From the NCBI RefSeq assembly GCF_002854065.1, contig NZ_CP024147.1: DNA of 64,000 nt; one strand, given 5' to 3'. The stretch comes from Escherichia coli. GTDB taxonomy: Bacteria; Pseudomonadota; Gammaproteobacteria; Enterobacterales; Enterobacteriaceae. The translations under genes and the position numbers were made by a program. Shown here piece after piece: positions 27,066 through 27,739 of this stretch. The stretch's first letter is position 1. Each line of letters starts with the position of its first letter. The notes beneath the pieces were generated by a model. It was not told where the DNA came from, searched no databases, and saw only the letters and a list, made by a program, of their open reading frames with translations.

Positions 27066-27739
27066 AGAGTAAAACTCATTAGGATTATCAGAATTCGGCC
27101 AATGCATTGCAAAAATGAAATACAAAGAGAGATGTGTGCAGGCGCTTAGCCGCGAGGGGCATGGCGAAGCCATACAGAAAGCACCAGCATTCAGAACTCC
27201 TGTGAAAGCGGCATAGTGCCGCTGCTCAGGAGTTTTGTTATGACCCGTATCGTGCTGAACGTTGCCACCCTATGATGCGATTAAAAAAACTCACCGTCGA
27301 GCCGATGATTGACGTCAATGCTATCGGATGATGCCGGGGGTGTTCCGGAAGGAATTCCTTGTTTCCCGAACTGTTACCAACAAAATTATAACGATGAGCA
27401 AGTAAAGACCGGTTGGTGGCAGTACTGACCGGTCTGTGATGGAAGATTAATTTCACCTTAAATCCTGGTGCTGTTAGGATGCTGACGTTTTTCGGCTACA
27501 CCATTCAGATTATGCAAATAAATATCCCTGAATATAATATATTCATAGCACCCATAACTCATCCTGGGCGATAACTAAACCATTTTTGAGTAACAAATGA
27601 AACAACTGCAACGCTCTTATTATTTCTGGAAAACGTCTCGCAAAAACAAAACAACATGCAGAAATCCGCTTTCGTTAATTAATTTTCCGGCGTAATTTTC
27701 GCACATACATTAATGAGTAATATATGTAAGGTGGTGGTA

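What the first reader, a model, noticed from the sequence alone, without database searches (positions are those of the whole stretch)
27091..27357. GC-richer structured element downstream of the foreign gene
Within the AT-rich island there is a ~260-bp GC-richer stretch containing a nested inverted repeat (aactcctg...agcggcatagtgccgct...caggagtt). It is too far (about 60-130 nt) from the stop and lacks a clean T-run, so it is not an obvious intrinsic terminator. It could be a small RNA, a regulatory structure, or a remnant of the ancestral yiiD-yiiE spacer. The stretch is bracketed by two GAATTC sites at 27091 and 27352, which I treat as coincidental.
Basis: seen in the sequence. Interest (0 to 1): 0.3.

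Follow-up and report, generated by a model that had tools for sequence, protein, structure and literature searches.

The report
Orphaned leader hairpin in a gene-cluster scar
The GC-richer stretch is the leftover of a small gene cluster that other E. coli and related bacteria still carry intact, and its strong hairpin is the conserved stem-loop that normally hides the ribosome-binding site of a small gene that is dead in this strain, so it is an ordinary genomic scar and not a new RNA gene.

Summary
A two-tier hairpin at 27196-27236 folds at -30.4 kcal/mol (z = -4.9), GC is 0.51 against 0.35-0.39 in the flanks, and two EcoRI sites bracket the stretch by coincidence.

The stretch is not a small-RNA gene and not K-12 spacer. 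K-12 MG1655 lacks window 25316-27361 entirely. It is a patchwork of relics from a cluster found intact in some E. coli, Klebsiella spallanzanii and Pseudocitrobacter: alpha/beta hydrolase, HigB-like toxin, NadS antitoxin, hairpin, ORF70 (small Cys/Arg-rich protein), ORF92.
- 27132-27236 is a 105-nt repeat unit: the last 26 nt of a nadS-like gene plus the hairpin.
- 27240-27289 is the start of ORF70, broken by a 1-nt deletion.
- A roughly 392-bp deletion at about 27290 joins it to the decayed 3' end of ORF92.

The hairpin's 3' arm is ORF70's Shine-Dalgarno sequence (AGGAG, 7 nt before the ATG). Distant ORF70 homologues carry different-sequence hairpins that also bury the SD, with compensatory pair changes. 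The hairpin is therefore most likely a translational-control leader, possibly also a terminator. Here it is orphaned and may at most terminate the 615-aa gene's transcript.

Low interest; new member of a known kind.

The parts
27066..27131 (+). 3' flank of the 615-aa gene (stop codon ends at 27065). It is shared by all strains that carry that gene and contains the first GAATTC (27091-27096).
   Evidence: It aligns to L004:1119-1184 directly after the same gene in strain YL3. It has no significant homology to the higB-like/nadS region (score 18 against a shuffle mean of 18.1).
27132..27236 (+). 105-nt repeat unit. 'Full-type' strains carry it twice as direct repeats: copy 1 after the 615-aa gene and copy 2 after nadS. 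This window has a single copy.
   Evidence: Local alignment places window 27132-27236 on L004:3001-3107. Copy 1 and copy 2 in YL3 are 87.6% identical over 105 nt. The window unit is identical across the alignment to copy 1 of strain 28Eco12. In E. coli genomes it occurs only at this locus, 1-2 copies per genome; a third 'place' was the palindrome matching itself.
27132..27157 (+). Decayed homologue of the last 26 nt of nadS, the HTH antitoxin-like gene. The stop codon is lost (GAG where nadS has TAG).
   Evidence: Alignments with nadS 3' ends of UTAK-18 and YL3. nadS identity: NCBIfam NF041265, 60.4 bits against a cut-off of 60, and Pfam HTH_3.
27161..27173 (+). Small 5-bp hairpin, ATGGC-GAA-GCCAT. 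nadS-linked copies have GGCAT-GGTT-ATGCC at the same place.
   Evidence: -6.4 kcal/mol, z = -0.4, not significant on its own. Sequence comparison.
27192..27240 (+). Two-tier hairpin. The anti-SD arm is AACTCCTG (27196-27203), the inner stem is AGCGGCA/TGCCGCT, and the SD arm is CAGGAGTT (27229-27236). The stem can extend through CAGAA/UUUUG. A U-rich tail, TTTTGTTAT, runs into the ORF70 start codon.
   Evidence: Fold -30.4 kcal/mol, z = -4.94. Sequence is conserved upstream of ORF70 in E. coli, Pseudocitrobacter (three species) and Klebsiella spallanzanii, while the nadS-hairpin spacer is not conserved. Divergent ORF70 homologues have different hairpins at the same position that also bury the SD.
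27240..27275 (+). Dead 5' end of ORF70. The ATG is at 27240. A 1-nt deletion between 27249 and 27250 (CGTAATCGT became CGTATCGT) leaves an 11-codon ORF, MTRIVLNVATL*. Homology to ORF70 continues to about 27289.
   Evidence: Alignment to L004:3110-3164. Intact ORF70 is 70 aa in YL3, K. spallanzanii and P. vendiensis. It matches phrog_4499 at E = 1.4e-13.
27289..27292 (.). Junction of a roughly 392-bp deletion that removed the rest of ORF70 and the first two thirds of ORF92. It lies at the end of an A7 run, with TC microhomology.
   Evidence: Window up to 27292 aligns to L004 up to 3164, and window from 27291 aligns to L004 from 3555. The same junction is present in UTAK-18, SCPM and all single-copy strains sampled.
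27291..27395 (+). Decayed 3' third of ORF92. It has an in-frame TGA at 27310-27312 (CGA in YL3) and a frameshift near 27340. It contains the second GAATTC (27352-27357).
   Evidence: Alignment and three-frame translation against YL3 ORF92. ORF92 homologues follow ORF70 in K. spallanzanii, L088 and L089. A profile search found 152 representative clusters at E <= 1e-3.
27361..27362 (.). Right breakpoint of the K-12-type deletion. K-12 lacks window 25316-27361.
   Evidence: blastn of the 853-bp K-12 MG1655 fabY-yiiE spacer against the window. Strain D9 has the same structure.
27406..27435 (+). Second strong hairpin, AGACCGGTTGGTG/CACTGACCGGTCT, just after the ORF92 stop region. It lies outside the finding and is retained in K-12.
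   Evidence: -20.3 kcal/mol, z = -3.92. Conserved in all four strain types aligned.

Best explanation
**What it is.** The stretch is a scar of a conserved gene cluster, not a gene of its own.

**The intact cluster.** In intact loci the order between fabY and yiiE/fdhE is: alpha/beta hydrolase (opposite strand), HigB/RelE-like toxin, NadS antitoxin, hairpin, ORF70 (70-aa basic protein with an invariant PCxCSCWMCG motif), ORF92.

**What the hairpin does there.**
- Shown: the hairpin sits immediately before ORF70. Its 3' arm contains ORF70's Shine-Dalgarno sequence (AGGAG, 7 nt before the ATG), paired with an anti-SD 5' arm.
- Inferred: in intact loci the hairpin keeps ORF70 translation off on transcripts that read through from the toxin-antitoxin genes. 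With its U-rich tail it probably also terminates a fraction of those transcripts.

**What happened in this window (shown).**
- The hydrolase-toxin-nadS segment is absent. It lies between two 105-nt direct repeats in full-type strains, and only one repeat unit remains here.
- ORF70 carries a 1-nt deletion in codon 4.
- A roughly 392-bp deletion fuses its first 16 codons to the decayed tail of ORF92.

**Consequence (inferred).** The hairpin is orphaned. The only role left to it is as a terminator or 3' stabiliser for the mRNA of the 615-aa gene, which ends 131 nt upstream.
For: **Relic anatomy**
- Alignments of the window with strains UTAK-18, YL3, D9 and K-12 account for every part of 27132-27400.
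- Full-type strains YL3, 7/2, 28Eco12 and ETEC1701 carry the repeat twice, flanking hydrolase, toxin and nadS.
- The window's unit equals 28Eco12 copy 1.

**The hairpin belongs to ORF70, not to nadS**
- In K. spallanzanii and three Pseudocitrobacter species the hairpin and ORF70 are conserved, while the 45-nt nadS-hairpin spacer is unrelated.
- Genera that have nadS but no ORF70 (Salmonella arizonae, Enterobacter, Citrobacter, Kluyvera and others) have a different, ordinary terminator hairpin directly after nadS.
- In loci L088 and L089 the ORF70-ORF92 pair has no nadS upstream, yet a hairpin still precedes ORF70.

**SD sequestration recurs with different sequences**
- L088 has CACUCCGA...UCGGAGUG (-34.3 kcal/mol, z = -5.2). 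L089 has UUUCUUCAUAU...AUAUGAGGAAG (z = -3.25). L124 gives z = -3.97. YL3 and P. vendiensis give z of about -3.4.
- Positions -13 to -8 before the start codon are paired in all four lineages, and -7 and -6 in three of them (unpaired in L124). The pair types differ at -13, -12, -10, -7 and -6.
- Only 1 of 66 control ORF starts (1.5%) in the same loci has both z < -3 and an SD at least 75% paired.

**Other support**
- ORF70 is a real family: phrog_4499 at E = 1.4e-13, 431 phage records, 38 viral contigs, invariant Cys motif.
- No promoter-like site lies between nadS and ORF70 in YL3. The only strong one precedes the toxin gene.
Against: - Within the enterobacterial orthologues there is no covariation: 0 double changes, 92% of cells paired, and shuffles equal the observed value. 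That set shows only sequence conservation.
- A covariance model built from that set does not find the divergent hairpins, even with filters off. Homology of the hairpins across lineages is therefore not shown. They could be convergent, or simply terminators of the upstream genes.
- T5-like phage homologues and loci L123 and L126 have no significant leader structure.
- In the K. spallanzanii orthologue the fold is weaker (-18.9 kcal/mol, z = -1.7) and the U-tract is missing.
- A -22 to -35 kcal/mol hairpin is very stable for a reversible translational switch, and no opening mechanism is known.
- No transcript data could be consulted.
Confidence: 0.7

Rival explanations
1. The hairpin is simply a Rho-independent terminator. 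It ends nadS transcripts in intact loci and transcripts of the 615-aa gene in this window. The overlap with ORF70's ribosome-binding site is incidental.
For: - A stable GC-containing stem is followed by UUUUGUUAU in E. coli and by UUUUGUCAU or UUUCGUGAU in Pseudocitrobacter.
- It lies on the correct strand, 131 nt after the stop of the 615-aa gene.
- In full-type strains copy 1 sits between the convergent 615-aa and hydrolase genes, where a bidirectional terminator would be expected.
Against: - The consensus scan did not call it.
- The K. spallanzanii orthologue has no U-tract (GAGUGAUGAAAUG), yet keeps the SD-burying stem.
- Copy 1 in YL3 is followed by UUACCUUC on the + strand and UUCUGAAU on the - strand, both weak tails.
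- Genera without ORF70 use a different terminator after nadS.
- The hairpin sequence is conserved between genera as well as the flanking coding sequence, while the spacer before it is not. That is unusual for a plain terminator.
- This reading is not exclusive of the best explanation.
Confidence: 0.3
2. The stretch encodes an independent small regulatory RNA.
For: - There is a strong local structure.
- The location is intergenic.
- The - strand of the whole stretch folds somewhat better than shuffles (z = -2.6).
Against: - No Rfam family matches at E <= 10, either in the window or in the intact locus.
- No promoter-like site lies on the + strand. The only - strand sites (27113-27084) lie downstream of the hairpin for that strand.
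- Every segment is explained as a decayed coding or leader remnant.
- About 2,060 of 5,426 E. coli genomes, including K-12, lack the stretch entirely.
Confidence: 0.05
3. The element works at the DNA level. The 105-nt direct repeats, or the palindrome, form a recombination module that lets the hydrolase-toxin-antitoxin segment be lost or gained, like a cassette boundary.
For: - Full-type strains carry the segment flanked by the two repeats, and single-copy strains lack exactly that segment.
- Single-copy strains are mosaics whose switch from copy-1-like to copy-2-like sequence lies at different places: O145 RM12522, EC17GD31 and N-01, and the window/O157 type.
- About 330 genomes have two copies and about 730 have one copy next to the 615-aa gene.
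Against: - Ordinary RecA-dependent recombination between 105-nt repeats explains loss without any dedicated function.
- No integrase or recombinase gene is in the locus.
- By inspection, the arms do not fit the integron attC core sites RYYYAAC and GTTRRRY (TCAGAAC and GTTTTAC).
- All single-copy strains sampled share the same 1-nt ORF70 deletion. One deletion event followed by allelic exchange therefore fits as well as repeated events.
Confidence: 0.08
4. The hairpin is a chance palindrome without any function, past or present.
For: Within close relatives no compensatory change is seen.
Against: - z = -4.9, in the top 0.1% of 60-nt windows.
- It is conserved across three genera at a fixed distance from the ORF70 start.
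- Analogous hairpins occur in divergent homologues.
Confidence: 0.02

Closest known systems
SD-sequestering leader hairpins that block translation initiation (for example the stem-loop that hides the ribosome-binding site of phage T4 gene e on early read-through transcripts; recalled from memory, not checked here)
   Same: - An anti-SD arm pairs with the Shine-Dalgarno sequence a few nucleotides before the start codon.
- The gene lies downstream of other genes in the same orientation, so read-through transcripts would carry the closed structure.
- The gene family is phage-associated.
   Different: - No internal promoter or other opening mechanism was found.
- The stem is unusually stable (-22 to -35 kcal/mol) and two-tiered.
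- In this window the regulated gene is destroyed.
Rho-independent (intrinsic) terminators
   Same: A stable stem-loop followed by a U-rich tail, located after a gene on the same strand.
   Different: - Interior loops and a long stem of up to 19 bp.
- The tail is interrupted (UUUUGUUAU) and is absent in K. spallanzanii.
- The consensus scan did not call it.
Gene remnants left by deletion between direct repeats in variable intergenic regions of E. coli
   Same: - A 105-nt repeat flanks a 1.8-kb segment in some strains, and a single repeat without the segment is present in others.
- Further deletions with short microhomology occur here and in K-12.
   Different: Nothing unusual. This is the ordinary process.
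HigBA/RelE-Xre type II toxin-antitoxin operons (the nadS pair)
   Same: The first 26 nt of the repeat are homologous to the 3' end of nadS, which follows a RelE-like gene with overlapping stop and start codons.
   Different: Only 26 nt of the antitoxin gene remain here. No toxin or antitoxin is encoded in the window at this locus.

Membership tests
Rho-independent terminator | GC-rich stem-loop on the transcribed strand downstream of a gene | tested here: met
   -30.4 kcal/mol hairpin at 27196-27236, 131 nt after the stop at 27065.
Rho-independent terminator | Uninterrupted U-rich tract immediately after the stem | tested here: inconclusive
   The tail is UUUUGUUAU (7 U in 9), but part of it pairs with the upstream CAGAA. 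The scan did not call it. The tract is absent in the K. spallanzanii orthologue.
Rho-independent terminator | Transcripts end at the U-tract in vivo or in vitro | not testable with these tools
SD-sequestering translational-control leader | The Shine-Dalgarno sequence lies in a stem, paired to an anti-SD, with a start codon 5-9 nt downstream | tested here: met
   AGGAG sits in the 3' arm and ATG 27240 follows 7 nt later. Positions -13 to -4 are paired in the MFE fold.
SD-sequestering translational-control leader | Pairing is maintained by compensatory changes among homologues | tested here: inconclusive
   No double changes occur among 9 enterobacterial copies. Different pair types appear at 5 of 8 positions across four lineages (one lineage, L124, is unpaired at two of those five) when aligned by distance from the start codon. 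However, a covariance model does not link the lineages.
SD-sequestering translational-control leader | An intact downstream gene to regulate | tested here: not met
   ORF70 in the window has a 1-nt deletion in codon 4 and a roughly 392-bp deletion. It is intact in YL3, K. spallanzanii and P. vendiensis.
Known RNA families (Rfam 15), including small RNAs | Match to a curated covariance model | tested here: not met
   Nothing in 27091-27357 at E <= 10, and nothing at the intact hairpins of YL3 other than a chance mir-532 hit of 15.9 bits.
Dispersed intergenic repeats of E. coli (REP/BIME, ERIC and similar) | Many copies scattered around the genome | tested here: not met
   One or two copies per genome, all at the fabY-yiiE locus. 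Of 3,820 places in 3,369 genomes, all but 2 are on chromosomes. The third 'place' in one strain examined (and in YL3) was the palindrome's self-match.
Integron attC recombination site | Imperfect palindrome bounded by RYYYAAC and GTTRRRY core sites, next to an integrase or in a cassette array | tested here: not met
   By inspection the ends read TCAGAAC and GTTTTAC, which do not fit. No integrase gene is in the locus.
Remnant of nadS (NadS-family HTH antitoxin gene) | Sequence homology to the gene in syntenic position | tested here: met
   Window 27132-27157 aligns to the last 26 nt of nadS within a 105-nt local alignment (score 155). There is no significant homology further left (same call).

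The most novel reading that the evidence does not exclude
The hairpin may be the conserved cis-regulatory leader of an unannotated two-gene module. The module pairs ORF70, a basic protein with an invariant PCxCSCWMCG motif, with ORF92. It occurs in enterobacterial chromosomes, in unplaced contigs and (ORF70 at least) in hundreds of T5-like phages. The leader is absent from Rfam, and neither protein is in Pfam. The tight translational lock could mean the module's product is harmful when expressed, as with a toxin or a phage host-takeover factor. This window keeps only the module's scar.
Probability: 0.45. Interest if true: 0.45.

Novelty: new member of a known kind. Interest (0 to 1): 0.3.

Why it matters
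For this window it matters little: the stretch is a scar, and the finding can be closed as explained.

Three wider points follow.
- The fabY-yiiE 'AT-rich island' is not an insertion relative to K-12. K-12 is a deletion derivative that still holds the first 22 codons of the 615-aa gene.
- The locus is a clear example of stepwise gene loss through direct repeats and microhomology, with about 330 two-copy, 730 one-copy, 2,300 nadS-only and 2,060 empty genomes among 5,426 (approximate counts).
- The analysis exposes a conserved, largely unannotated small-gene pair (ORF70 and ORF92) with a ribosome-binding-site-burying leader. This could be tested as a new cis-regulatory motif.

Tried and rejected
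- **Rfam.** Scans of the window (24700-28800) and of the intact YL3 locus at E <= 10 found nothing relevant.
- **Covariance model.** Model R1, built from nine enterobacterial hairpins, was searched against divergent ORF70 loci with default filters and with filters off. It returned only noise. I do not claim that the hairpins of different lineages are homologous.
- **Covariation in the close set.** The count gave zero double changes and was uninformative.
- **'Chimeric arms' idea, withdrawn.** Comparison with YL3 alone suggested that the window's hairpin had a left arm from copy 1 and a right arm from copy 2. Copy 1 of strain 28Eco12 has exactly the window's sequence on both arms.
- **Homology further left.** A search for nadS homology left of 27132 gave a score at shuffle level.
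- **Third repeat copy.** The 'third place' was the palindrome matching itself on the other strand.
- **Protein libraries.** Pfam, NCBIfam and PADLOC gave nothing for ORF70, ORF92 or the 615-aa protein; PHROGs matched ORF70 only (phrog_4499) and nothing for the other two; a PDB sequence search, run for the 615-aa protein only, also found nothing.
- **Structure prediction.** The AlphaFold model of ORF70 had mean pLDDT 56.7, too poor for a fold search.
- **Literature.** Searches for yiiD/yiiE and for NadS found only a sigma-S SELEX peak listed in the K-12 spacer and nothing on this element.
- **Integron attC and dispersed repeats.** Both were considered and rejected (see the membership table).

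Full report
**Setting.** The window is Escherichia coli chromosome: yihY, dtd, fabY (yiiD, ends at 24841), an AT-rich region with a 615-aa ORF (25218/25251-27065), the finding (27091-27357), then yiiE (27740-27958), yiiF, fdhE and fdoIH.

**Checking the observation.**
- The nested inverted repeat is real and sits at 27196-27236. The outer stem is AACTCCTG/CAGGAGTT. The inner stem is AGCGGCA/TGCCGCT with a 3-nt loop.
- As RNA it folds at -30.4 kcal/mol on the + strand (z = -4.94, no shuffle as good) and -24.9 on the - strand. It lies in the top 0.1% of all 60-nt windows of the 64-kb sequence.
- The 267-nt stretch as a whole is not unusually structured on the + strand (z = -1.5). The signal is one hairpin, not a 260-nt fold.
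- GC is 0.506, against 0.386 for the 615-aa gene and 0.35-0.37 for the other flanks. That equals the window average of 0.502.
- The two GAATTC sites exist. The window has 13 sites against about 21 expected, so the bracketing means nothing.

**What the sequence is.** A BLAST of 27066-27720 against 5,426 complete E. coli genomes showed that the locus comes in several forms. Fetching examples resolved them.
- The fullest form (strains YL3, 7/2, 28Eco12, ETEC1701) reads: fabY, the 615-aa gene, repeat copy 1, an alpha/beta hydrolase on the opposite strand, a 103-aa RelE/HigB-like gene, nadS (96-aa HTH antitoxin-like; NCBIfam NadS, Pfam HTH_3), repeat copy 2, ORF70, ORF92, yiiE.
- The two repeat copies are 105 nt long and 87.6% identical in YL3. 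Each consists of 26 nt homologous to the 3' end of nadS, a spacer with a small hairpin, and the large hairpin.
- The window has one repeat unit (27132-27236) directly after the 3' flank of the 615-aa gene. The hydrolase, toxin and nadS genes are absent.
- The window unit is identical across the alignment to copy 1 of strain 28Eco12.
- Downstream, 27240-27289 is the start of ORF70 with one base missing in codon 4. This leaves an 11-codon ORF.
- At about 27290, at the end of an A7 run, a roughly 392-bp deletion joins ORF70 to the last third of ORF92. That remnant has an in-frame TGA (27310-27312) and a frameshift.
- The GC-richer composition is therefore the composition of former coding sequence.

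**K-12.** The 853-bp fabY-yiiE spacer of MG1655 aligns to window 24842-25315 (97.3%) and 27362-27740 (96.6%). It lacks 25316-27361. K-12 keeps the first 22 codons of the 615-aa gene and the tail of ORF92. It is therefore a deletion derivative, and the finding has no K-12 counterpart.

**Census (approximate).**
- 1,062 of 5,426 genomes hold the 615-aa gene's 3' flank plus the repeat.
- About 330 genomes show two places, the full type. That leaves about 730 one-copy genomes like the window, including O157:H7.
- 2,302 genomes have only the nadS-linked copy, and about 2,060 have none.
- One-copy strains are mosaics in which the change from copy-1-like to copy-2-like sequence lies at different points: O145 RM12522, EC17GD31 and N-01, and the window/O157 type. 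All share the 1-nt ORF70 deletion.
- Loss of the hydrolase-toxin-antitoxin segment by recombination between the direct repeats is the simplest route. I cannot tell whether it happened once, with later allelic exchange, or several times.

**Whose hairpin is it?** NadS homologues were fetched from one genome per species.
- In Salmonella arizonae, Enterobacter, Citrobacter, Kluyvera, Leclercia, Lelliottia and others, nadS lies next to fdhE. It is followed at once by an unrelated, ordinary terminator hairpin.
- Only where ORF70 is present (three Pseudocitrobacter species and Klebsiella spallanzanii) is the E. coli-type hairpin present. There it is well conserved, while the 45-nt spacer between nadS and the hairpin is not alignable.
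- ORF70 and ORF92 are intact there.
- ORF70 is a real family with an invariant PCxCSCWMCG motif. It matches phrog_4499 (E = 1.4e-13) and has homologues in 38 viral contigs and 431 phage records, mostly of T5-like size, all annotated as hypothetical.
- ORF92 follows ORF70 also in two unrelated contexts without nadS, L088 and L089. It belongs to a family of at least 152 representative clusters without a Pfam model.
- The hairpin therefore travels with the ORF70-ORF92 pair.

**How it most likely works.**
- The 3' arm of the hairpin contains AGGAG, 7 nt before the ORF70 start codon. The 5' arm (CUCCU) is its complement. The ribosome-binding site is locked in the stem.
- Divergent homologues have hairpins of different sequence in the same place. 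L088 has CACUCCGA...UCGGAGUG around a GCGCGGC/GCCGCGC inner stem (-34.3 kcal/mol, z = -5.2). L089 has UUUCUUCAUAU...AUAUGAGGAAG around CGCGGUU/GACCGCG (z = -3.25). L124 gives z = -3.97.
- Aligned only by distance from the start codon, positions -13 to -8 are paired in all four lineages, and -7 and -6 in three of them (unpaired in L124). The pair types differ at five of these eight positions.
- Among 66 control ORF starts in the same loci, one (1.5%) has both z < -3 and a mostly paired SD.
- In YL3 the only strong promoter-like site precedes the toxin gene, and none lies between nadS and ORF70. ORF70 is therefore probably reached by read-through transcripts that carry the closed hairpin.
- I infer a translational lock on ORF70. 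In E. coli and Pseudocitrobacter the U-rich tail would add partial termination.

**Limits of the evidence.**
- The close orthologues show no covariation.
- A covariance model from them does not find the distant hairpins.
- T5-like, L123 and L126 homologues lack a significant structure.
- The K. spallanzanii fold is weaker and lacks the U-tract.
- No opening mechanism is known.

**In this window** the gene behind the lock is dead, so the hairpin is a fossil. It could still act as a terminator or 3' stabiliser for the 615-aa gene's mRNA, which ends 131 nt upstream. I put that at about 0.4, and it is untested.

**Comparison with known things.**
- No Rfam family matches.
- The element is not a dispersed repeat: it has one or two copies, always at this locus.
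- It does not fit attC core sites, and no recombinase is nearby.
- It works like an SD-sequestering leader and partly like an intrinsic terminator. In this window it fails the requirement of an intact regulated gene.

**Verdict.** The finding is an ordinary genomic scar containing an orphaned but once-functional hairpin. Novelty: new member of a known kind. Interest: 0.3.

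Noticed in passing
window 25251-27065 (ORF listed from 25218): The 615-aa 'foreign' gene is intact here and in strain XJ34 but split in two in O157:H7 (330 + 304 aa). RefSeq labels its C-terminal half 'transposase', with no support from Pfam, NCBIfam, PHROGs, PADLOC or PDB sequence searches. It contains a CX5R-type motif, CKSAKDR, at about 26745-26765. This recalls the IpgD/SopB inositol-phosphatase active site (from memory, not tested). AGGAGG at 25240-25245 suggests that the real start is the ATG at 25251.
   Followed up: partly
L004:1249-1289 (YL3 copy 1) against L087 about 4570-4606 and window 27196-27236: In YL3, 7/2 and ETEC1701 the copy-1 hairpin is a perfect 19-bp palindrome (right arm TTTCAC). 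In 28Eco12 and the window the right arm reads TGCTC. A multi-base difference that makes one arm the exact complement of the other looks like a quasi-palindrome template-switch correction.
   Followed up: no
window 27406-27435: A second strong hairpin, AGACCGGTTGGTG...CACTGACCGGTCT (-20.3 kcal/mol, z = -3.9), lies just after the ORF92 stop region. It is conserved in K-12 and has no T-run after it.
   Followed up: partly
window 28503-28545 and 28463-28499: Between yiiF and fdhE there is a near-threshold Rfam match to ES036 (CssrF) sRNA (36.8 bits against a gathering score of 37.6, E = 6.5e-5). A REP-like partial match to naRNA4 lies on the other strand.
   Followed up: no
L021:3775-4427 (Pseudocitrobacter vendiensis); window 28176-28600: In Pseudocitrobacter the yiiF homologue (ribbon-helix-helix) overlaps a 126-aa ORF that looks like a PIN/VapC toxin (MVMTNGSALFDTNILIDLF...). 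In K. spallanzanii only a fused remnant remains. In the window an unrelated 62-aa ORF starts with the same MVM at the yiiF stop. E. coli yiiF may therefore be an orphan VapB-like antitoxin.
   Followed up: no
L004:3111-3333 and proteins P0008-P0031: ORF70 is often frameshifted among E. coli strains. Several database 'homologues' are fusions of its N-terminus with the +1 frame. That frame encodes a hydrophobic peptide (…VFVLVGCVGIDAIIMVPAYRKFVQKHAMRIKGK) resembling a small membrane protein. Conservation in other genera supports the ORF70 frame.
   Followed up: partly
window 27291-27308, minus strand: The only terminator-like site the scan called in 26900-27800 is on the minus strand (TCATCGGCTCGACGGTGA followed by GTTTTTTTAA). 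Its T-run is the A7 run at the roughly 392-bp deletion junction, so it appears to be a by-product of the deletion.
   Followed up: no
L001:4519-5499 (strain UTAK-18): An IS621 (IS110-family) copy is inserted between yiiF and fdhE, in the REP-containing spacer. This is a further sign that the fabY-fdhE interval is a hotspot of rearrangement.
   Followed up: no
loci L008-L027: The hydrolase, HigB-like and nadS trio is syntenic between fabY and fdhE in many Enterobacteriaceae that lack yiiE and, except Pluralibacter gergoviae (L022), yiiF. The toxin-antitoxin pair therefore appears to be the old resident of this site, and ORF70, ORF92, yiiE, yiiF and the 615-aa gene later additions.
   Followed up: partly
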